Shown here: positions 5,339-30,177 of the stretch, piece after piece
How the letters are laid out: every line of letters begins with the position of its first letter
Numbering within the stretch: position 1 is the stretch's first letter
Source of the DNA: Acaryochloris marina MBIC11017
GTDB taxonomy: Bacteria; Cyanobacteriota; Cyanobacteriia; Thermosynechococcales; Thermosynechococcaceae
Direction: 5' to 3'
Assembly: GCF_000018105.1 (NCBI RefSeq)
Contig: NC_009925.1
Span: 4,290,001-4,322,000, forward strand
Length of the DNA: 32,000 bases
Program-made: the position numbers and the translations under genes
Notes under the pieces: generated by a model
The model's database searches: none
What the model was told of the DNA's origin: nothing
The model's input: the letters and a program-made list of their open reading frames with translations, nothing else

Positions 5339-6097
5339 ATGTTAATGATCATCTCCCCCTCTAAAACGCAAAACTTTGATCCGCGACCTGGGATTGACTA
5401 TACGGTGCCTGCTCAAGCTGCGCGAACTCAAAGGTTGGTCAAGCAACTGCGACAATATAGCCCGGAAGACCTGGGCAAGTTGATGAAAATCAGTCCAAAA
5501 CTGTCTGATCTCAACTGGCAACGCTACCAGGACTTTCAGGACTCATTTACCCAAAACAATGCCAAACAAGCTCTTTTAGCGTTTAAAGGAGATGTCTATA
5601 ACGGGATTGAGGTCGATACTTACACGCCAGAGGATTTTACCTTTGCCCAGAATCATCTCCGTATTCTGTCGGGGTTATATGGTCTCCTCAAGCCCCTGGA
5701 TTTGATCCAGCCCTATCGGTTGGAGATGGGGACAAAGCTCCAGACGGACAAAGGCAAAACCCTTTATGACTTTTGGGGGGCTCAAATTACCGACGCACTG
5801 AATGCTGATTTAGCCTCAGATACCACTCTGGTAAACCTAGCGTCTGGGGAATATTTCAAGGCCGTTCAACCTCAACAGCTCAACGGCAAGGTGCTCAATA
5901 TCGCCTTTAAGGAAAATAAAAATGGCACCTATAAAGTGATTGGCATTCACGCTAAACGGGCGCGAGGATTAATGGTGAACTATGCCATCCAAAACCGTAT
6001 AACTGCCCCCAAAGCTTTACAAGCGTTTGATGAAGAGGGCTATGGGTTCGAACCTAGTCTGTCGACCGAAACAGAGTGGGTTTTTTGTCGAAACTGA
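5339..6097 (+). CDS. yaaA: Peroxide stress protein YaaA (UPF0246/DUF328)
   Basis: 252 aa with the characteristic N-terminus MLMIISPSKTQ and family-typical GDVY, RILSGLYGLLKPLDLIQPYRLEM and HAKRARG motifs. Confidence 0.9.
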   Translation: MLMIISPSKTQNFDPRPGIDYTVPAQAARTQRLVKQLRQYSPEDLGKLMKISPKLSDLNWQRYQDFQDSFTQNNAKQALLAFKGDVYNGIEVDTYTPEDFTFAQNHLRILSGLYGLLKPLDLIQPYRLEMGTKLQTDKGKTLYDFWGAQITDALNADLASDTTLVNLASGEYFKAVQPQQLNGKVLNIAFKENKNGTYKVIGIHAKRARGLMVNYAIQNRITAPKALQAFDEEGYGFEPSLSTETEWVFCRN

Positions 6098-23102: not shown

Positions 23103-23834
23103 TTATTCAAAAATCTTTATATTTTCTTCGATTGTTTTGATTATATCTTCATCGAACTCCTTATTTTTATTTAAAATTACTTTATTGTCTGTATTTCGCT
23201 TTTGGGTTTTCTTGATATTATCTATTTCTTTTATGATTATCTGCATTAAATATTGATTGTCATCTATATTCTGGTGAGTAATTGTTGTATCAGACAAAAG
23301 TGTTTCAACATTAATATTTCTGGAGCCACTCATTTCCCTGACACCTTGAGGCTCCAAGAAATCCGTTGACTCTTGATAGTAATTAATTCCTGAAGTTACA
23401 TTTGTAGGTAAAGTATTATTATTTGCTTTTACTGAGTCGATCTGAATCAATAAATCGATAATTTGATCCTCAGGTAACAATAACTCTTTCGATAATTTAA
23501 TTGCCGAACGACCACCAAGACTATATCCAATTATTACTAACTTTCCTATATCACTAAATGACTTTATATACCTATAAGCTTCTTCATTTTCATGATGTTG
23601 GAATACTTTACTAGAAATAGATATTTTTAATCCACTATTGAAATTATTTCGTAAGGCTATATTTAGCTTTTCGATACCATTGGAGTTGGATGAGCTACTG
23701 CGTAATTCAGCAAATAAACCATCAAATAATACGACTACTGTTCGTTTGCCTATAGAGTTTTCAGAAGACAAGCAGGATTTAATAGGAAATAGAACTATGA
23801 AGGATGCAAAAATTATAGAAATTATTTTTTTCAT
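23103..23834 (-). CDS. Secreted/lipoprotein-like alpha/beta-hydrolase (lipase/esterase-like) protein
   Basis: 243 aa in a very AT-rich region. Signal peptide MKKIISIIFASFIVLFPIKSC. Nucleophile elbow VIIGYSLGGRSA (GxSxG), preceded by VVVLFDG. A possible catalytic His lies in TITHQNIDD. Confidence 0.6.
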   Translation of the reverse strand: MKKIISIIFASFIVLFPIKSCLSSENSIGKRTVVVLFDGLFAELRSSSSNSNGIEKLNIALRNNFNSGLKISISSKVFQHHENEEAYRYIKSFSDIGKLVIIGYSLGGRSAIKLSKELLLPEDQIIDLLIQIDSVKANNNTLPTNVTSGINYYQESTDFLEPQGVREMSGSRNINVETLLSDTTITHQNIDDNQYLMQIIIKEIDNIKKTQKRNTDNKVILNKNKEFDEDIIKTIEENIKIFE

Positions 23835-24129: not shown

Positions 24130-27100
24130 CTAAATATAATGATCACAGGCTTGCATAGCTTCTATGACAATATCCTCACCTTTGGTTGGCTGCTTGAATA
24201 TGGAATGATAGTACAGTTGATGGCAAGCAGTTGACAGTAAAGATTTCAAATCAGAAATATTCCAGATACGGACGCTTTTGTCATCACTACTGCTGATGAT
24301 GCGCTGGCCATCAAGACTAAAAGCTACTGACATAACTGAAGACTCATGTCCTTTCAGTGGTTTGCCGATAAGGTCACCAGTTTTGGCATCCCAAAGTCGA
24401 ATAGTTTTGTCCCAACTGCCGCTGACAATGCGTTGACTGTCAGGACTAAATGCCACTGACATGATAGATAACTCATGTCCTCTTAACGGCTTGCCTATAG
24501 GGTCACCGGTTTTAGCATCCCAAAATCGTATGGTTCTATCTCCACTACTGCTGACAATGCGTTGACTGTCAGGACTAAATGCCACTGACATGACAGGCAA
24601 CTTATGCCCTCTTAATGGCTTGCCTACAGGGTCACCGGTTTTAGCATCCCAAAGTCGTAAGGTTTTGTCACCACTGCCGCTAACGATGTGTTGGCCATCA
24701 GGACTAAATGTCACTGTTCTGACCAAAGACTTATGGCCTTTTAACGGCTTGCCTACAGGGTCACCGGTTTTGGCATTCCAAAGTCGGACGGTGTTGTCAT
24801 TACTGCCGCTAGCGATGTGTTGGCCATCAGGACTAAATGCTACTGACATGACAGCTGATTCATGTCCTTTCAACGGCTTGCCAATGATTTCACCGGTTTT
24901 AGCATCCCAGACTCGTATGGTTTTGTCCCAACTGCCACTAGCGATGTGTTGGCCATCAGGACTAAATGCTACTGACCTGACAAAATCTTCATGTCCTTTC
25001 AACGGCTTGCCAATGATTTCACCGGTTTTGGCATCCCAGACTCGTATGGTTTTATCCCTACTGCCGCTAGCGATGTGTTGGCCATCAGGACTAAATGCTA
25101 CTGACCTGACAAAATCTTCATGTCCTTTCAACGGTTTACTGATAGAGCTACCAGTCTCTGTGTCCCAGAGTCGCACGGTTTTGTCATAACTGCCACTGAC
25201 GATGTGCTGGCCATCAGGACTAAATGCTACTGACATAACAGTATCTTCATGTCCTTTAAATGGTTTGCCGATCGGGTCACCGGTTTTAGCATCCCAAAGT
25301 CGCATGGTTTTGTCACTACTGTTGCTGGCGATGAGCTGGCCATCAGGACTAAATGCCACTGATTCGACCACAGACTTGTGTCCTTTCAATGGTTTACCGA
25401 TTGGGGCACCGGTTTTAGCATCCCAAAGTCGCACGGTTTTGTCATAACTGCCACTGACAATGTGCTGACCATCAGGACTAAATGCTACTGACATGACATA
25501 GGACTTATGTCCTTTCAATGGTTTGCCGATCAGGTCACCAGTCTTAGCATTCCAAATTTGTACAGTATTGTCACCACTGCCACTGACAATGTGCTGACCA
25601 TCAGGACTAAATGCTACTGACATGACAGAAGATTTATGGATAAACTGATTGCGCTCCCTGTTAGCAAGAACCGCAGTCAGTAAGCTATCGTCTACAAAAT
25701 CGAACTGTGGACGGTCGGGAAATTGAACAAACGCTGACTGGCTTAATCTCTTTGCAGCAATGGCATTAATTATTGCTTGCACAGGTTGGCTCTCAGCTAA
25801 AGCTTTAGAGTTTGTCGCCAATTGCTTTACTCGTTGCCGCTGGGCGCTTTGCGTCTGAAACAACGCAAAAATGGCAGTACCTGCCATCAATACCGAACCA
25901 ATAGATGCACCAATAGCGATACTTCTGGCTCGCTTTAATTCTCGCTTTTGAAAGCGGAGACTAGCATTTATATATTTGTTCTCATCTGCGCTGAGGGTAA
26001 GAGATTGTAATTCAAAACGATTGGAACTACGGAGCTCAATGACCTTCTCTAGGAAAGAACCCTTTAGTAATTCTTCATTCGATTGACATGTTTCATTCCA
26101 ACGCCCTAAATCCTCAACTAAACGAGATTTTATCAACAGAGTTTCCTTAGTTTCATCAATCCAACCTTCCAGCATTTTCCACGAACTCAACAGAATCTCA
26201 TGGGCAATCTCAATTGTTGCTTGTTGTGCAGAAGAGTTTTTGGTCTCTTGCTTTGGTAAGCCTGATAGGTTCAAGCACTCGCTATTGCTGACCAACAAAT
26301 TCTCATTGATGAGCCGATCAATCGTTGCTTGTACAGTAGCTCCATAGAATTTGGATCTAGCCATACTTTGGCTAACAGGCTTGCTTACACCATCTGTTTC
26401 AATAAGTTTAACTAGACTTAAGAAAATCTGCTTAACTGCTTGTTGTCCATCCGTACCAAGTTCTTCATAGATCTTGTTGACATGTTTTTCCAAGGTACCT
26501 CTCACCTTGCCAAGAGCTCGGTAATTCTGAGTATTTAGAATTCGATCATTCAGTTCATCATGTTCGAATTCGTACTTCCACAGTTGATCCAAGGTATATT
26601 GCATCAAAGGCAAAGCTCCCGCTTGTCCTTGAACATCGTGAATGATTTCTCTAACCAGCTTCGGTTCAAATCGCACTCCATGCTTCGCGGCTGGACCCTT
26701 AATTGCCAGCTCTAGTTCATCTTCTGGCATATCAGTGACGAGGTAAATTTCCTGTTGCACAGCCTTGCCAAATTGAGCATATGGGCTGAACTGTTCTAGA
26801 AAATCAGCCCGCATTGCCAACATAATCTTGAGCGAGCAATCCTTAGAGTCAGCAATTTTAGTAATACTATTTATAAAATTCTTTCGCTGTTGCAAGTTTG
26901 TACAACGAGTAAATAGTTCCTCAAATTGATCAATGAAGACTAACCACTCAGTATTTTGTTCTTTAAGGCGGTAGGCTATTTGTGAGAAAACATTGGATTT
27001 TTCCTTTAAAATAAATTCAGTTTGTGACTCATCGAAGCGATAATCTTTATCCAATCCAGTCTTATCTCTACCAATTAAACTTGTATAAAGTGACTGAAAA

Positions 27101-27477
27101 GGATTCTTCCCAGGTGTCAGAACAAAACCATGATGATTGGAACTAGTACTTAAGAACTCAGGAATAATCTTTGCTCGTACTACCGATGATTTACCACTAC
27201 CAGAAGCTCCAAGAACCAAAACCAAATTCTTGGTCTTAAGTGCTACTTGCAATGCCTGTGCAAGCTGATAGCGACCAAAAAAGTACTCAACATCGTCAAC
27301 ATCAAAACGTTTTAGCGCTTTATAGGGTGACCTTGCTTGGAATGAATTTAGTTTAATCGTCTCCGGTGTAATTAAGAGCTGTTGCTCAATATAGGTAGAC
27401 CCAATAACATTTTGGCCAATATTTCCCTTAGCACCCTGGCCAATATCAATCTTTCTAGGAGAGCTGTCATTAACCAT
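24130..27477 (-). CDS. NLR-like STAND P-loop NTPase with an N-terminal G/N/Q-rich motif, one TM helix and 11 WD40 repeats
   Basis: RBS gagagg, ATG at 27477 (the track TTG start at 27516 is less likely). N-terminus MVNDSSPRKIDIGQGAKGNIGQNVIGS. Then SPYKALKRFDVDDVEYFFGR, Walker A GASGSGKSS (27183..27210) and Walker B LVFIDQFEELF. TM helix IAIGASIGSVLMAGTAIFALF, followed by 11 WD40 units of 43 aa. Confidence 0.9.
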   Translation of the reverse strand: MVNDSSPRKIDIGQGAKGNIGQNVIGSTYIEQQLLITPETIKLNSFQARSPYKALKRFDVDDVEYFFGRYQLAQALQVALKTKNLVLVLGASGSGKSSVVRAKIIPEFLSTSSNHHGFVLTPGKNPFQSLYTSLIGRDKTGLDKDYRFDESQTEFILKEKSNVFSQIAYRLKEQNTEWLVFIDQFEELFTRCTNLQQRKNFINSITKIADSKDCSLKIMLAMRADFLEQFSPYAQFGKAVQQEIYLVTDMPEDELELAIKGPAAKHGVRFEPKLVREIIHDVQGQAGALPLMQYTLDQLWKYEFEHDELNDRILNTQNYRALGKVRGTLEKHVNKIYEELGTDGQQAVKQIFLSLVKLIETDGVSKPVSQSMARSKFYGATVQATIDRLINENLLVSNSECLNLSGLPKQETKNSSAQQATIEIAHEILLSSWKMLEGWIDETKETLLIKSRLVEDLGRWNETCQSNEELLKGSFLEKVIELRSSNRFELQSLTLSADENKYINASLRFQKRELKRARSIAIGASIGSVLMAGTAIFALFQTQSAQRQRVKQLATNSKALAESQPVQAIINAIAAKRLSQSAFVQFPDRPQFDFVDDSLLTAVLANRERNQFIHKSSVMSVAFSPDGQHIVSGSGDNTVQIWNAKTGDLIGKPLKGHKSYVMSVAFSPDGQHIVSGSYDKTVRLWDAKTGAPIGKPLKGHKSVVESVAFSPDGQLIASNSSDKTMRLWDAKTGDPIGKPFKGHEDTVMSVAFSPDGQHIVSGSYDKTVRLWDTETGSSISKPLKGHEDFVRSVAFSPDGQHIASGSRDKTIRVWDAKTGEIIGKPLKGHEDFVRSVAFSPDGQHIASGSWDKTIRVWDAKTGEIIGKPLKGHESAVMSVAFSPDGQHIASGSNDNTVRLWNAKTGDPVGKPLKGHKSLVRTVTFSPDGQHIVSGSGDKTLRLWDAKTGDPVGKPLRGHKLPVMSVAFSPDSQRIVSSSGDRTIRFWDAKTGDPIGKPLRGHELSIMSVAFSPDSQRIVSGSWDKTIRLWDAKTGDLIGKPLKGHESSVMSVAFSLDGQRIISSSDDKSVRIWNISDLKSLLSTACHQLYYHSIFKQPTKGEDIVIEAMQACDHYI
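24220..25638 (-). repeat. Tandem array of 11 coding repeats of 129 nt (WD40 blades)
   Basis: Unit consensus is HxxxVxSVAFSPDGQHIVSGSxDKTVRLWDAKTGxxIGKPLKG. Units 5 and 6 (24994..25122 and 24865..24993) differ at 4 of 129 nt by my reading. Confidence 0.9.
27410..27446. repeat. Left copy of a 37-nt perfect inverted repeat (codes for the STAND N-terminal motif)
   Basis: ttttggccaatatttcccttagcaccctggccaatat is the exact reverse complement of 27973..28009. Confidence 0.9.
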
Positions 27478-27677
27478 GTTTACCTCTCGAACATTCCTGA
27501 AGAGGAGTGACTCCAAATTATTCTCAATTAATTATCTGTAGAATGAACAAAAAATATGCAAAGAAATTCATTCCTTCGAATAAAGAACAGAATAGTGGAG
27601 TAATCTTATAAATATTTCTGTAAAAGTGCTTCCCCTCTTGACTATTCACTAACTCAATCTATTAGGAGTTTAAAATT

Positions 27678-28043
27678 ATGGATCCTATGATGCTTATTTT
27701 GACAGCTCTGGTTACTGGGGCTGCTAAAGTCGCAGGTGATGCTGCACCTGATGCTTACAAGGGATTAAAAGCACTTATTCAAAAGAAGGTTGTGGGGAAA
27801 CCAGAAGCAGAAATGGCATTAGCGAAATATGAAGAAAAACCGGATGTCTGGGAAGAACCTCTAAAGGATGCACTAGCTGAGTCGGGTATTGATAAAGACG
27901 AAGAAATTCTCAAGGCTGCACAGGAGTTGTTAGAACAGCTGCAGCCTGGAAAAACAGTGTCTGGGACTATCAATATTGGCCAGGGTGCTAAGGGAAATAT
28001 TGGCCAAAACGTCATAGGATCAAAGATTGGAATAATCAAGTAG
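27678..28043 (+). CDS. Small helical protein (Bell/HeLo-like candidate) ending in the motif shared with the STAND NTPase
   Basis: RBS aggag, ATG at 27678, 121 aa. It has a hydrophobic N-terminal helix (MDPMMLILTALVTGAAKVAG), a charged helical middle, and the C-terminus TINIGQGAKGNIGQNVIGSKIGIIK. Confidence 0.75.
   Translation: MDPMMLILTALVTGAAKVAGDAAPDAYKGLKALIQKKVVGKPEAEMALAKYEEKPDVWEEPLKDALAESGIDKDEEILKAAQELLEQLQPGKTVSGTINIGQGAKGNIGQNVIGSKIGIIK
27973..28009. repeat. Right copy of the 37-nt perfect inverted repeat (codes for the small-protein C-terminal motif)
   Basis: atattggccagggtgctaagggaaatattggccaaaa. It is in the same codon phase as the left copy. Confidence 0.9.
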
Positions 28044-28223: not shown

Positions 28224-28647
28224 TCAGATTTTCTTGCAAAAACTTGAAATAGCCTTGCCCACGAAACACTGCATTAGATTGAGCAGGTAAAGATTGACCT
28301 TATAAATTTCCCACTCATCCCCCTCTGCATCGGTGACCCAGGCTTTGTCTTACAGGGCATAGTAGCAAGTAGTTTGATTGTCTGAACAGACTGGTAGGCT
28401 TAGCTTTGCTAAGCCTACCTCTTTCTTTTGCAACCTGCTCCTATGACTCCACTTCAATGCCCACGTGGTTTAACTTGCTGGTGGCTGTGGAGTTTTCGAA
28501 TAACACCAGTTTGAGTGGCGGGTTTGCGATCGCAAAGTTGGTATACCCAGGTCGACGCTTGGCCGGTTCAGTGGCAAATAGTTTGCTGTAAAAACGAGTA
28601 GCCGCTTCCAGGTCTTTGACATTAAGGGCGAGTTGGATGCGAGACAT
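28224..28647 (-). pseudogene. ArsI/CadI-family (VOC/glyoxalase fold) gene, decayed
   Basis: The N-terminal 68 codons MSRIQLALNVKDLEAATRFYSKLFATEPAKRRPGYTNFAIANPPLKLVLFEN...LNHVGIEVES match the CadI/ArsI family and end at a TAG (28441-43). The homologous C-terminal part continues in another frame (TTCYYAL*DKAWVTDAEGDEWEIYKV) with an in-frame TAA at 28350-52. Confidence 0.75.
28393..28419. repeat. Perfect 12-bp-arm palindrome inside the pseudogene
   Basis: ggtaggcttagc ttt gctaagcctacc, followed on the plus strand by tctttcttttg. It lies within the interval (about 28370-28415) where the pseudogene changes frame. Confidence 0.6.
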
Positions 28648-28742: not shown

Positions 28743-29603
28743 TCACTTTTTCTTGCGTTTTTTGTTCTTGGGTTTCACAGCCCCAAACCCCGTCGTTTTC
28801 TTTCCTGACTTTTTCCGGTTCTGGGATAAAGCACCTTTGCTAAAGTCGGGTAATTTGCTCTGTTCCCGTGCCAACTCAGTGGTCATATTTGCCAATCGAC
28901 GGATTTGCTCCATCCACTCTGGTTCCTGATGCTGAAGTTCTTCTGGAGAAAAGTCTGCTTCTGTTGCCAGTCCTAGCGCAATCTGCACTCTTGCCCAGCT
29001 GCCACAGAACATTTCGTCCATTGGGCCTTCCTTGTAAGCCCGTTCAATTACACTGACGGCTCCAGTCGCTTTTAAGTTGATTAACTCGACAACTAAACTT
29101 GCATTCGTCTCCGCTGCTTGTTCCTTATGACGAGCTAGCGCTGTCGTTAATTCATCAATGCATTCTTGGCGATAATCAGGGTTTAGTTGAGCAATTTTGG
29201 TGAGTCCTGAAGCGGCCGTAGAGATCCCTAGCCAAGGACGTTCCCCCTCAGCTAGATAACCCGAGAGTATGGGAATACAGGTTGGGCCTATTTTTCCCAA
29301 GATCGTGGGCAACTCTTCTCTTAAAAAGTCATACTCACTATCAAAGAAAGCCAACAGTGCTTGAATCGCTTTCTCTGTTTTGAGTTGACCTAATGCACGA
29401 CAAGCATGCATGGGGGAATAGCCCTCTCCCTCATCATCCCAGTTCAAGTCTTCTTCAGCAGCGAGCCGGCTGAGTTCAGGGATATGAGCTTCTGTAAATC
29501 CAAAGTTTTGGAGATAATCAATAGCCTCGGGGCTATTTAAATCTTCTGGATATCCTAGAGTGAGGAGTTGGGCTACAGGATCTTGGTACGCAGGGATAGG
29601 CAT
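28743..29603 (-). CDS. DUF1186-like protein with a Lys-rich C-terminal tail
   Basis: 286 aa. The stretch HIPELSRLAAEEDLNWDDEGEGYSPMHACRALGQLKTEKAIQALL...EELPTILGKIGPTCIPILSGYL resembles DUF1186 proteins from memory. The tail is KPKNKKRKKK. Confidence 0.6.
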   Translation of the reverse strand: MPIPAYQDPVAQLLTLGYPEDLNSPEAIDYLQNFGFTEAHIPELSRLAAEEDLNWDDEGEGYSPMHACRALGQLKTEKAIQALLAFFDSEYDFLREELPTILGKIGPTCIPILSGYLAEGERPWLGISTAASGLTKIAQLNPDYRQECIDELTTALARHKEQAAETNASLVVELINLKATGAVSVIERAYKEGPMDEMFCGSWARVQIALGLATEADFSPEELQHQEPEWMEQIRRLANMTTELAREQSKLPDFSKGALSQNRKKSGKKTTGFGAVKPKNKKRKKK

Positions 29604-29676: not shown

Positions 29677-30177
29677 TCAACAAAGTGTGGGATAGGAAGC
29701 TAAGTCTTGCCATCTCCAAGGACGCTCCGTCAATCCAGCTCGTTGGGCAGCCGTGTTCTTGAATCGAGAGTGGCACCAAATCCAGTTGAAATAGCTCAGC
29801 ACCAATCTTAAAGTCATCGCACTCTGTTGCCAGACTTTGCCAAACTTATTCTGTCGTCGATGCCAACGCCCGGTCTGCTGACGCACGATGCCATTGGTCC
29901 GCTCTAAGCGTTGGGTCAGGGCTTTACTCACTTCATGGACGACCTCATCGGGTAATTGTCGTGCGTACCCTTCCCAACCATCCGTTTGCCAATGATGACA
30001 GGCGGTTTTGCCCTCAGTATTTTCAATCAATTCTTGAGCTAGCTCGTCGGTATGTTTGCCAATACGGCCACTGAGCACGAGACCACTCTCTTTCGCAAGA
30101 CTCAATGCTATCCAGCAGTCGCCTACCCTCAACTCCTTCGGCTCACAGTGCTTTTGCTTTTTTTGACAAAGGACCAC
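29677..30177 (-). CDS. insB: IS1-family InsB (DDE part), expressed as an InsAB fusion by a -1 frameshift
   Basis: An A7 run (30158..30164) lies in the overlap with insA. Motifs include CWIALS, WQTDGWEGY and TQRLERTNGIVRQQTGRWHRRQNKF. Confidence 0.85.
   Translation of the reverse strand: MVLCQKKQKHCEPKELRVGDCWIALSLAKESGLVLSGRIGKHTDELAQELIENTEGKTACHHWQTDGWEGYARQLPDEVVHEVSKALTQRLERTNGIVRQQTGRWHRRQNKFGKVWQQSAMTLRLVLSYFNWIWCHSRFKNTAAQRAGLTERPWRWQDLASYPTLC

What the first reader, a model, noticed from the sequence alone, without database searches (positions are those of the whole stretch)
24130..28043. Adjacent STAND-WD40 NTPase and small helical protein share one 18-residue G/N/Q-rich terminal motif: candidate NLR/amyloid-signalling cell-death module
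Seen in sequence: the 1115-aa minus-strand protein begins MVNDSSPRK-IDIGQGAKGNIGQNVIGS. It then continues into a P-loop STAND NTPase (Walker A GASGSGKSS, Walker B LVFIDQFEELF), one TM helix and 11 WD40 units. The divergently transcribed 121-aa protein has a hydrophobic N-terminal helix and a charged helical body, and ends in INIGQGAKGNIGQNVIGS-KIGIIK. That is 17/18 identical residues at opposite termini of neighbouring genes. The motif contains an internal pseudo-repeat ((D/N)IGQG .. NIGQN). Established knowledge: this layout is known from fungal HET-S/NWD2-type pairs and from Bell-domain/BASS-motif pairs described in filamentous Actinobacteria and Cyanobacteria. In those pairs a short amyloid-forming motif sits at the C-terminus of a membrane-targeting helical executioner and at the N-terminus of the adjacent NLR-like NTPase. 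Activation passes between them by prion-like templating and triggers cell death. Inference: this locus is such a sensor/executioner pair. The WD40 propeller would be the sensor, the NTPase the switch, the shared motif the transmission element, and the small protein the membrane effector. I cannot tell whether this motif belongs to a published BASS family or is a new one. The TM-containing NLR, the divergent arrangement and the neighbouring hydrolase gene are unusual additions.
Basis: partly seen in the sequence, partly recalled or inferred. Interest (0 to 1): 0.85.

Follow-up and report, generated by a model that had tools for sequence, protein, structure and literature searches.

The report
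Amyloid-motif cell-death pair in Acaryochloris
Two back-to-back genes in the cyanobacterium Acaryochloris marina, a small membrane-killer-type protein and a large membrane-anchored NLR-like sensor, share a short matching tail. This is a new variant of a known bacterial "amyloid signalling" cell-death module, interesting to specialists but not a new kind of system.

Summary
A 121-aa protein (27678-28043, +) ends in INIGQGAKGNIGQNVIGS. The divergent 1115-aa protein (24130-27477, -) starts, after 9 residues, with IDIGQGAKGNIGQNVIGS.

- **Small protein:** it is a Bell/HetE-N domain protein. It is 58% identical to a protein in the published Bell set, carries the conserved N-terminal M(D/E)P(I/V)(S/T)-type helix, and is modelled as five helices with a disordered tail.
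- **Large protein:** it reads motif, nSTAND1 NTPase, one conserved N-in/C-out membrane anchor, then 11 near-identical WD40 units.
- **Co-variation:** among 55 other genomes where a motif-matching partner was found, the motif class changes but still matches the partner (permutation z = 15). A plasmid paralogue pair in a second A. marina strain differs at three motif positions, in both genes alike.

Fibril formation and toxicity remain inferred.

What is new:
- The motif matches none of BASS1-10 convincingly.
- The partner belongs to the nSTAND1 clade (39 of 55 pairs here), which the 2020 catalogue (NACHT/NB-ARC only) did not screen.
- The sensor is predicted to lie outside the cytoplasm.
- The divergent layout is rare.

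The membrane helix is a family trait, not an oddity. The "hydrolase" neighbour is not part of the module.

The parts
27678..28043 (+). Gene for the 121-aa Bell/HetE-N protein, the predicted membrane-targeting executioner.
   Evidence: ORF. It is 100% identical to an Acaryochloris marina hypothetical protein, and its homologues carry precomputed PF20701 (HetE-N). The N-domain is 58% identical (E 5e-31) to the L023 protein, which is PSB32048.1 of the published Bell set. The AF2 model has five helices with pLDDT about 80-89.
27678..27947 (+). Bell helical domain, residues 1-90. The N-terminal hydrophobic helix starts MDPMMLILTALVTGAAK (Asp at position 2, invariant Gly14).
   Evidence: Alignments A1 and A2 give invariant I7, A10, L11, G14. 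Helices are at 3-18, 25-38, 42-53, 55-69 and 75-88. The 'MEPIS' N-terminal motif and an essential Gly in helix 1 are described for Bab and Bell.
27969..28022 (+). Effector-side shared motif INIGQGAKGNIGQNVIGS (residues 98-115), followed by KIGIIK and the stop codon.
   Evidence: This region is disordered in the monomer model (pLDDT below 40). 83% of its residues are G, N, Q, I or V, with no P or L.
27478..27677 (.). 200-bp divergent intergenic region, presumably holding the promoters for both genes. It contains a block conserved with the plasmid paralogue at about 27521-27557 (TCTCAATTAATTATCTGTAGAA..GCAAAAAATAT).
   Evidence: Alignment with L081. The spacer is the same length in the paralogue. 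The simple promoter scan was uninformative.
24130..27477 (-). Gene for the 1115-aa NLR-like receptor. Its order is motif, nSTAND1 NTPase, membrane anchor, WD40 array.
   Evidence: ORF. Pfam gives nSTAND1 PF20703 at E 3e-103 (residues 51-466) and 11 WD40 stretches.
27397..27450 (-). Receptor-side shared motif IDIGQGAKGNIGQNVIGS (residues 10-27).
   Evidence: It forms a 49-nt, 92% inverted DNA repeat with 27973-28021.
26080..27327 (-). nSTAND1 NTPase domain, with Walker A at 27187-27210 and Walker B at 26917-26943.
25840..25923 (-). Single membrane-spanning segment (residues 519-546). The predicted topology puts the N-terminus in the cytoplasm and the C-terminus outside.
   Evidence: Kyte-Doolittle 19-residue mean of 1.9. 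The segment sits at the same position in 27 of 30 nSTAND1 partners. Flanking K+R counts average 5.9 (N side) against 2.2 (C side), with N greater than C in 29 of 30.
24226..25644 (-). Eleven 43-aa WD40 units (a 129-nt tandem array). They are highly similar to one another, with a few hypervariable columns. This is the predicted ligand sensor.
   Evidence: The other A. marina strain has 14 units and is otherwise 100% identical.

Best explanation
This is a two-gene effector/receptor cell-death module of the Bell/BASS-NLR type.

**Proposed mechanism**
1. The receptor is anchored in a membrane by one helix. Its motif and nSTAND1 NTPase face the cytoplasm. Its WD40 array is predicted to lie on the other side.
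2. Ligand binding to the WD40 array would drive NTP-dependent oligomerisation.
3. Oligomerisation brings the N-terminal 18-residue G/N/Q/I-rich motifs together, so that they adopt a cross-beta (beta-arch) fold.
4. That fold templates the matching C-terminal motif of the small Bell protein.
5. Templating releases the buried N-terminal hydrophobic helix of the Bell protein, which attacks the membrane and kills the cell. The purpose would be abortive infection or another regulated death.

**What is shown and what is inferred**
- Shown here: the domain identities, the motif match, and its co-variation between partners across genomes and paralogues.
- Inferred from homologous systems (BASS1/BASS3 fibrils and prion behaviour; Bab/Agp in E. 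coli; HET-S/NWD2): amyloid formation, templating, membrane attack and the trigger.
For: **1. Family membership of the small protein**
- 213 relatives, nearly all carrying PF20701 HetE-N.
- The N-domain is 58% identical (E 5e-31) to the Stenomitos/Leptolyngbya frigida ULC18 protein. That protein's pair, PSB32048.1/PSB32049.1, is listed in Table S2 of Dyrka et al. 2020.
- A profile search finds 2917 cluster representatives, mostly 120-140 aa. They include a direct Bell-STAND-TPR fusion (P0159) and a Bell protein with a Pfam RHIM motif (P0266).
- The model has five helices plus a disordered tail. The N-terminus is of the M(D/E)P(I/V)(S/T)L type with an invariant Gly in helix 1, as described for Bell and Bab.

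**2. Receptor**
- nSTAND1 at E 3e-103, plus 11 WD40 units.

**3. Co-variation**
- In 55 of the 80 other loci, a large ORF carries the small protein's C-terminal motif at its N-terminus. In 54 of these it lies immediately downstream. The motif class differs between loci.
- With partners chosen by position only, the sum of own-pair scores is 3742. Permuted pairings give 2006 +/- 114 (z = 15.3).
- The chromosomal A. marina pair has G-N-IGQ-N-VIG-S in both genes. The plasmid paralogue pair has G-I-IGQ-T-VIG-A in both genes.
- Two of these three paired changes lie where every synonymous site differs between the partners. They are therefore not explained by the recent conversion tract.

**4. Motif character**
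- Its composition (83% G/N/Q/I/V, no P or L) and its period-8 Gly-punctuated pattern match published BASS properties.

**5. Mechanistic precedent**
- BASS motifs form fibrils and act as prions, and NLR-side motifs convert Bell-side motifs (abstract).
- Bab/Agp shows phage-triggered amyloid activation of a Bell-type domain, with membrane alteration.
Against: - No experiment or amyloid predictor was run on this motif. AF2 gives no structure for the tail.
- The fold search of the Bell model against the PDB gave nothing significant. The profile search of PDB sequences gave nothing either. The link to HeLo/MLKL-type folds is therefore not shown here.
- The local Pfam copy (PF20701.3) does not hit the window protein itself. 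Only the precomputed newer version does.
- The motif fits none of BASS1-10 beyond a partial resemblance to one BASS3 sequence.
- If the WD40 array is extracytoplasmic, the usual model of an NLR sensing a cytoplasmic phage protein does not apply, and the trigger is unknown.
- This strain's receptor has 11 WD40 units against 14 (two propellers of seven blades) in the other strain. It might be a crippled allele.
- PADLOC has no model for either protein.
Confidence: 0.7

Rival explanations
1. The shared motif is a docking tag, not an amyloid. The two termini form a defined, stoichiometric hetero-complex, for example by beta-strand pairing. This would work like the 'effector-associated domain' coupling of neighbouring genes, recruiting the Bell protein to the activated NTPase without prion-like templating.
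For: Co-variation of adjacent copies is also the signature of EAD-type adaptor coupling (Kaur et al. 2020). No fibril evidence exists for this motif. AF2 gives no fold for it. It matches no validated BASS family.
Against: The motif is only about 18-25 residues, G/N/Q/I/V-rich, Gly-punctuated and disordered in the monomer. That matches BASS and fungal amyloid motifs rather than a folded adaptor domain. Every BASS motif tested so far formed fibrils.
Confidence: 0.15
2. The small protein is not the executioner. It is instead a regulator, inhibitor or membrane co-receptor of the NTPase, and the lethal or other output lies elsewhere.
For: No toxicity data exist. The receptor is itself membrane-anchored. 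The fold search did not link the small protein to pore-forming folds.
Against: The same domain occupies the N-terminal effector position of a STAND-TPR protein (P0159). Dyrka et al. report the same for Bell-NLR fusions. The receptor carries no other effector domain. The Bell-type domain of Bab executes abortive infection, and a Gly mutation in its helix 1 abolishes this.
Confidence: 0.08
3. The match is a by-product of DNA history, such as a recent duplication or gene conversion of a short repeat, and has no signalling role.
For: The two coding stretches form a 49-nt, 92% inverted repeat. They share an 11-codon run identical at all synonymous sites (P about 2e-4). This is the longest identical run among the 55 pairs compared (the window's pair included).
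Against: The last five codons all differ synonymously yet encode the same residues. The plasmid paralogue pair has no conversion tract but still matches. The match also recurs with different motif classes and different NTPase clades in 55 other loci. Conversion is better read as one way of keeping the partners matched.
Confidence: 0.03

Closest known systems
Bell-domain / BASS-motif / NLR gene pairs of filamentous Actinobacteria and Cyanobacteria (Dyrka et al. 2020, bioRxiv 10.1101/2020.01.06.895854; BASS1-10)
   Same: A helical effector of about 120 aa with a hydrophobic N-terminal helix and an acidic residue at position 2. A G/N/Q-rich motif of about 20-25 aa at its C-terminus, repeated at the N-terminus of the adjacent STAND NTPase with WD40 or TPR repeats. 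The small protein is a direct homologue (58% identity) of a protein in that data set.
   Different: The partner NTPase is nSTAND1, not NACHT or NB-ARC, which were the only clades screened. It has a conserved membrane anchor. The motif strings of this class and of other nSTAND1-linked classes are absent from Table S2. The genes are divergent, whereas 91% of published pairs are collinear. From my own knowledge, the host is a unicellular cyanobacterium.
Bab/Agp (BASS11) antiphage abortive-infection system of E. coli ECOR25 (Ibarlosa et al. 2024, bioRxiv 10.1101/2024.11.07.622273)
   Same: A small Bell-type ('Babybell') effector with a C-terminal amyloid motif shared with the N-terminus of the neighbouring sensor. 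The N-terminal helix is of the MEPIS type with a central Gly. This is the only experimentally shown function for a bacterial pair of this kind.
   Different: [quoted passage not shown] The effector domain is shorter (about 80 aa). The BASS11 sequence could not be compared here.
Fungal HET-S / NWD2 (HeLo domain + HRAM prion motif + NACHT-WD40 NLR)
   Same: The logic is the same: a WD40 NLR whose N-terminal motif templates the C-terminal motif of an adjacent membrane-targeting helical protein. The WD40 units are highly similar to each other, with hypervariable positions and copy-number changes (the fungal side is from my own knowledge).
   Different: No sequence or fold relationship was detected here. 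The fungal motif is a two-repeat beta-solenoid of 21-residue units. The fungal NLR is cytosolic, with a NACHT domain.
nSTAND1 conflict-system NTPases (Kaur et al. 2021, PMC8195603; Pfam PF20703), including transmembrane nSTAND1 proteins with C-terminal lectin-fold (CLec) sensor domains targeted by diversity-generating retroelements (bioRxiv 10.1101/2023.09.22.558884)
   Same: The same NTPase clade (E 3e-103). The layout with a transmembrane segment between the NTPase and a variable C-terminal sensor is also reported there.
   Different: Those descriptions pair nSTAND1 with folded effector or adaptor domains (EADs, TIR, peptidases). They mention no amyloid or Bell coupling.

Membership tests
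Bell / HetE-N domain (Pfam PF20701) | Sequence homology to established members. | tested here: met
   58% identity (E 5e-31) over the N-domain to the L023 protein, which is PSB32048.1 of Dyrka Table S2. Relatives carry precomputed PF20701.5. However, the local PF20701.3 model does not hit the window protein.
Bell / HetE-N domain (Pfam PF20701) | An all-helical domain of about 100 aa (five-helix bundle). Its N-terminal hydrophobic helix carries an acidic residue at position 2 or 3 (MEPIS-type) and a conserved Gly. | tested here: met
   The AF2 model has helices at 3-18, 25-38, 42-53, 55-69 and 75-88. The sequence starts MDPMMLILTALVTGAAK, and G14 is invariant in A1/A2.
Bell / HetE-N domain (Pfam PF20701) | Fold related to HeLo, Hell or MLKL 4HB membrane-targeting domains. 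| tested here: inconclusive
   Foldseek against the PDB gave a best E of 2.8. The PDB sequence-profile search found nothing.
Bell / HetE-N domain (Pfam PF20701) | Membrane-disrupting, cell-killing activity. | not testable with these tools
   This needs expression and toxicity assays.
BASS-type amyloid signalling pair (operational definition of Dyrka et al. 2020) | The same short motif occurs at the C-terminus of the effector and the N-terminus of an NLR-like protein encoded within 5 kb. | tested here: met
   17 of 18 residues are identical, and the start codons of the two divergently transcribed genes lie 200 bp apart. Score 86 against a shuffle maximum of 55.
BASS-type amyloid signalling pair (operational definition of Dyrka et al. 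2020) | The motif is co-conserved (co-varies) between partners across genomes. | tested here: met
   55 other loci have matching partners. Permutation z = 15.3. There are three paired substitutions between the chromosomal and plasmid paralogue pairs.
BASS-type amyloid signalling pair (operational definition of Dyrka et al. 2020) | The partner is a NACHT or NB-ARC NLR. | tested here: not met
   The partner is nSTAND1 (PF20703). This was a criterion of the screen rather than of the mechanism.
BASS-type amyloid signalling pair (operational definition of Dyrka et al. 2020) | The motif forms cross-beta fibrils, behaves as a prion and cross-seeds. | not testable with these tools
   Only the composition and the Gly-punctuated period-8 pattern are consistent. 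ArchCandy was not available.
Published motif families BASS1-10 | A match to a family consensus. | tested here: not met
   The motif strings are absent from Table S2. Against representatives of each family, only one BASS3 cya_15 sequence scores above shuffles (45 and 41; p 0.0005 and 0.003, uncorrected). The match is limited to INIGQG..GN. The G-(I/V)-Q-(I/V)-G-D-x-N-x-Q-x-N-x-F core is missing. The family HMMs themselves were not available.
BASS11 (Bab/Agp) | A match to the BASS11 motif. | not tested
   The motif sequence is given only in figures.
nSTAND1 STAND NTPase (PF20703) | A full-length match above the curated cut-off, with intact Walker A and Walker B. | tested here: met
   346.8 bits against a cut-off of 27.1, covering model positions 1-377 of 379. 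GASGSGKS and LVFIDQFEE are present.

The most novel reading that the evidence does not exclude
The nSTAND1 partners of Bell proteins would be transmembrane NLRs. The WD40 sensor would sit outside the cytoplasm, in the periplasm or thylakoid lumen. The NTPase and amyloid motif would sit inside. An extracytoplasmic cue would then be converted, across the membrane, into a cytoplasmic prion-like signal that arms a membrane-killing protein. This class uses its own motif families, including the INIGQGAKG(I/N)IGQ family seen here, and would be the majority partner of this Bell subfamily. The 2020 catalogue did not screen this NTPase clade, and I found no later description.
Probability: 0.3. Interest if true: 0.7.

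Novelty: new variant of a known kind. Interest (0 to 1): 0.5.

Why it matters
Bacterial Bell/BASS-NLR pairs are the prokaryotic counterpart of fungal HET-S/NWD2 and of RHIM necroptosis signalling. Their natural triggers and functions are still unknown outside one E. coli system.

This locus, and the 39 related nSTAND1 pairs found around it, extend the paradigm in three ways:
- to a third STAND clade;
- to receptors that are membrane-anchored with a probably external sensor;
- to a unicellular cyanobacterium.

That widens where amyloid signalling should be looked for. It also questions the proposed link to multicellularity.

The two A. marina paralogue pairs are a natural specificity experiment, because they differ at three co-varying motif positions. 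They could be used to test whether such small differences insulate parallel amyloid pathways from cross-talk.

Tried and rejected
- **Local Pfam, NCBIfam and PADLOC scans of the small protein:** no significant family. The name HetE-N came only from precomputed annotation of its relatives and one weak local hit.
- **PDB searches:** the sequence-profile search and the Foldseek search of the AF2 model found nothing significant. The HeLo/MLKL fold link could not be tested.
- **Motif-only alignment as a database query:** A concatenated 80-aa motif query returned only HetE-N proteins of about 120 aa and no other effector type. Receptor-side copies were too divergent to be recovered.
- **EACC1:** considered as the identity of the small protein because nSTAND1 occurs in EACC1 systems. 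Rejected, because EACC1 is a single-TM domain paired with caspases and there is no Pfam hit.
- **243-aa GYSLGG hydrolase-like neighbour as a third component:** rejected. It is absent from all 83 loci outside A. marina; among the other 86 loci it occurs only in L084.
- **CHAT-TPR neighbour of the plasmid paralogue as a second motif-bearing partner:** its N-terminus has no motif.
- **Promoter and terminator consensus scan of the intergenic region:** uninformative.
- **Phage collection:** no relatives.
- **Inverted repeat as an inversion switch** that would fuse Bell in frame to the receptor: considered, but no inverted or fused allele was seen in the two strains available. It remains speculation.

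Full report
**1. The observation**

One search lists a plus-strand ORF at 27678..28043 (121 aa) ending ...TINIGQGAKGNIGQNVIGSKIGIIK. It also lists a minus-strand ORF at 24130..27516. From the ATG at 27477 the latter reads MVNDSSPRKIDIGQGAKGNIGQNVIGSTY... (1115 aa).

Homologues begin in the same way, and an AGAGG-like ribosome-binding site precedes that ATG. I therefore take 27477 as the start. The two 18-mers (27969-28022 and 27397-27450) are identical at 17 of 18 positions. They are the only copies in the window.

The local alignment score is 86. In 5000 shuffles the mean is 25 and the maximum 55.

**2. Source**

The small protein is 100% identical to an Acaryochloris marina hypothetical protein found on a contig of 6,503,724 bp.

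A second strain (GCA_024347835.1; its plasmid record is named A. marina MBIC10699) carries the same chromosomal locus (L084). It also carries a paralogous pair on a 303-kb conjugative plasmid (L081).

The segment from 23 to 28 kb has lower G+C (0.28-0.46) than its flanks (about 0.48-0.53). IS1-type transposase ORFs lie next to it. This is consistent with acquired DNA.

**3. The small protein**

- Local Pfam, NCBIfam and PADLOC scans are silent.
- All close relatives carry the precomputed family PF20701, named HetE-N. Kaur et al. 2021 describe this as an uncharacterised effector domain. They find it in TPR-GreA/B-C-PIN systems and at the N-terminus of fungal HetE proteins.
- Its N-terminal 92 residues are 58% identical (E 5e-31) to the small protein of locus L023. 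The motif pair at L023 is exactly the PSB32048.1/PSB32049.1 pair in Table S2 of Dyrka et al. 2020. The window protein is therefore a homologue of a published Bell-domain protein.
- A profile search of 1.84 billion cluster representatives finds 2917 relatives, most of 120-140 aa. One (P0159, 880 aa) has the domain fused directly to a STAND NTPase plus TPR repeats. Another (P0266) carries a Pfam RHIM motif.
- AlphaFold2 with a 55-sequence alignment gives five helices at pLDDT about 80-89. The tail, residues 91-121, is disordered.
- The family N-terminus is M(D/E)P(I/V/M)(T/S)L..AL..G, with an invariant Gly14. This matches the conserved 'MEPIS' helix 1 and the essential central Gly reported for Bab and Bell domains.
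- Fold and sequence searches of the PDB were uninformative.

**4. The large protein**

Pfam gives nSTAND1 (PF20703; E 3e-103; residues 51-466) followed by 11 WD40 repeats. There is no other effector domain. Residues 1-9 are a leader, 10-27 the motif and 28-50 a linker.

Residues 519-546 form a single hydrophobic segment. An equivalent segment lies at the same relative position in 27 of 30 nSTAND1 partner proteins from other genomes. The 15 residues before it carry on average 5.9 Lys+Arg, against 2.2 after it. The N-side count is larger in 29 of 30 proteins.

By the positive-inside rule (established knowledge), this is a genuine N-in/C-out anchor. The NTPase and motif would be cytoplasmic, and the WD40 array would lie beyond the membrane. 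The topology is a prediction, not a demonstration.

**5. The decisive comparative test**

A scan of one genome per species found 227 relatives of the small protein, and 80 loci were kept.

- In 55 of these loci, a large ORF of at least 250 aa carries at its N-terminus a match (score at least 44) to the small protein's last 32 residues.
- In 54 of the 55, the partner lies immediately downstream on the same strand. One is convergent. The window's pair is the only divergent one.
- The Bell domain is conserved but the tail falls into distinct classes. Examples are INIGQGAKGIIGQTVTGATITGNIS, FQGEVKG.QVGDRNTQ.N.F (RHIM/BASS3-like), VQISGGTVQGLTQQNTGT, DVYGVAG.N.GTVNQ and NVKYAATSGSGNASIS. The partner's N-terminus follows the class.
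- When partners are chosen by position alone, own-pair scores sum to 3742. Permuted pairings give 2006 +/- 114 (z = 15.3). The window's own partner ranks first among 65.
- Thirty-nine of the 55 partners are nSTAND1-like (Walker A GASGSGKS). Among the rest are NACHT-type and NB-ARC-type NTPases. Pfam confirmed a sample of each type.

Within A. marina, the chromosomal pair has G-N-IGQ-N-VIG-S in both genes. The plasmid pair has G-I-IGQ-T-VIG-A in both genes. That is three paired substitutions.

**6. How the match is maintained**

The two motif-coding stretches form a 49-nt, 92% inverted repeat. Codons 3-13 are identical at every synonymous site. That is a run of 11 codons, with P about 2e-4 given the genes' codon usage. 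All five following codons differ only synonymously.

The plasmid pair shows no such tract. Across the 55 pairs scored in that analysis (the window's pair among them), identical codons are in modest excess (368 against 319.5 expected; z = 3.9). The excess is concentrated in a few pairs, and the window has the longest identical run, 37 nt.

I read this as occasional short gene conversion on top of selection for matching. Two of the three co-varying residues, N14 and S18 of the motif, lie outside the tract.

**7. Relation to published motif families**

- Dyrka et al. screened only NACHT and NB-ARC neighbours and defined BASS1-10. In their set, 91% of pairs were collinear.
- The strings IGQGAKG, GIIGQ, QGEVKG, VYGVAG and KYAATS are absent from their Table S2. 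The NACHT-linked GGTVQG pair is present.
- I compared the window motif with representatives of each family taken from that table. It scores above shuffles against only one sequence, the cyanobacterial BASS3 sequence EINIGQGGTGNTQNNTFN (p 0.0005 and 0.003, uncorrected).
- That resemblance stops after INIGQG..GN. The RHIM-like core is missing.
- BASS11 could not be compared, because its sequence is given only in figures.
- Papers mentioning nSTAND1 do not mention Bell, BASS or amyloid coupling. I found no later BASS families in the library.

**8. Mechanism**

The best-supported model is the Bell/BASS-NLR model.

1. Ligand-induced, NTP-dependent oligomerisation of the receptor clusters its N-terminal motifs into a cross-beta nucleus.
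2. That nucleus templates the tail of the small protein.
3. Templating frees the hydrophobic helix 1 of the small protein to damage the membrane.

The precedents are as follows.
- BASS1 and BASS3 motifs form fibrils and prions, and NLR-side motifs convert Bell-side motifs.
- In E. coli, Bab/Agp gives phage-triggered, amyloid-dependent abortive infection with membrane alteration.

The motif's composition is 83% G/N/Q/I/V with no Pro or Leu. Its Gly-punctuated period of eight residues fits short beta-arches.

What is shown here is identity, architecture and co-evolution. Fibril formation, templating, toxicity and the trigger are inferred.

The main rival is a non-amyloid docking tag, and the present data cannot exclude it. 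A reading based purely on DNA history is contradicted by sections 5 and 6.

**9.

- The membrane helix is a conserved family trait.
- The 243-aa neighbour (GYSLGG motif, signal-peptide-like N-terminus, G+C 0.28) occurs beside the pair only in A. marina. It is not part of the module.
- The divergent layout is rare, but it is conserved with the same 200-bp spacer in the plasmid paralogue. The two spacers share a conserved block.

**10. Verdict**

This is a correctly recognised, real Bell/amyloid-motif/NLR module. It is a new variant of a known kind. The new elements are a motif family that is not catalogued, an NTPase clade (nSTAND1) that the catalogue did not cover, a predicted external sensor, divergent gene order and a unicellular host (the last from my own knowledge).

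Interest is moderate (0.5). My confidence that it belongs to this class of system is about 0.9. My confidence that it works by amyloid templating to a membrane-killing effector is about 0.7.

Noticed in passing
window 24226-25644 (compare L084 4066-7800): The WD40 array differs in copy number between two A. marina strains: 11 units here and 14 in GCA_024347835.1. The proteins are otherwise 100% identical (1115 of 1115 aligned residues). The units are 43 aa (129 nt, 81% DNA matches), with variation concentrated in a few columns (unit positions 5-6, 24, 37-38). From my own knowledge, this resembles the internally conserved, hypervariable WD40 repeats of fungal NLRs. Eleven units do not make two seven-bladed propellers, so this allele may be impaired.
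   Followed up: partly
window 27398-27446 and 27973-28021: The motif-coding DNA forms an inverted repeat with an 11-codon stretch identical at all synonymous sites (P about 2e-4). This is probably a short gene-conversion tract. Recombination across it would, on paper, fuse the Bell domain in frame to the receptor body. No such allele was seen.
   Followed up: partly
window 25840-25923 and 30 partner proteins in L003-L079: The membrane anchor between the nSTAND1 domain and the repeat array is conserved, with a strong positive-inside bias (K+R 5.9 on the N side against 2.2 on the C side). This implies that these NLR-like receptors have an extracytoplasmic sensor domain.
   Followed up: yes
window 23103-23834 (-): A 243-aa ORF in a very AT-rich stretch (G+C 0.28). 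It has a signal-peptide-like N-terminus and a GYSLGG nucleophile-elbow motif, and no family hit in Pfam or PADLOC. Among the 87 loci examined it is present only in the other A. marina strain.
   Followed up: partly
window about 27521-27557 (compare L081 about 5845-5882): A conserved block in the divergent promoter region, TCTCAATTAATTATCTGTAGAA...GCAAAAAATAT, is shared by the chromosomal and plasmid paralogue loci. The intergenic DNA is otherwise only about 70% similar. It could be a shared regulatory site.
   Followed up: no
L081 (A. marina MBIC10699 plasmid NZ_AP026078.1, 94648-107016): The plasmid paralogue pair sits among an integrase, a CHAT-TPR protein (1177 aa, no shared motif), a TnpV-like gene and a large SNF2-type helicase. 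This is a mobile or defence-island-like context.
   Followed up: partly
L001-L080: 39 of 55 Bell partners in this survey are nSTAND1-WD40 proteins. Their motif classes (for example QGEVKG.., DVYGVAG.., NVKYAATSG..) are absent from the 2020 BASS pair table. The published catalogue therefore probably misses the commonest partner class of this Bell subfamily.
   Followed up: partly
window 28441-28647 (-) and 29677-30177 (-): A 68-aa glyoxalase-family fragment lies immediately downstream of the Bell gene and is probably a gene remnant. An IS1-type transposase ORF lies beyond the 286-aa HEAT-repeat ORF (28743-29603) that follows that fragment. Both suggest rearrangement at the edge of the inserted segment.
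   Followed up: no
P0146 (1784 aa): A long protein matches profile positions 28-56 of the Bell alignment 15 times over, and has no informative Pfam hit. This repetitive architecture is unexplained.
   Followed up: no
window 24278-25447 (+): Several plus-strand ORFs of 52-199 aa lie antisense to the WD40 array. They are repetitive mirror images of the repeat units and are almost certainly not genes.
   Followed up: no
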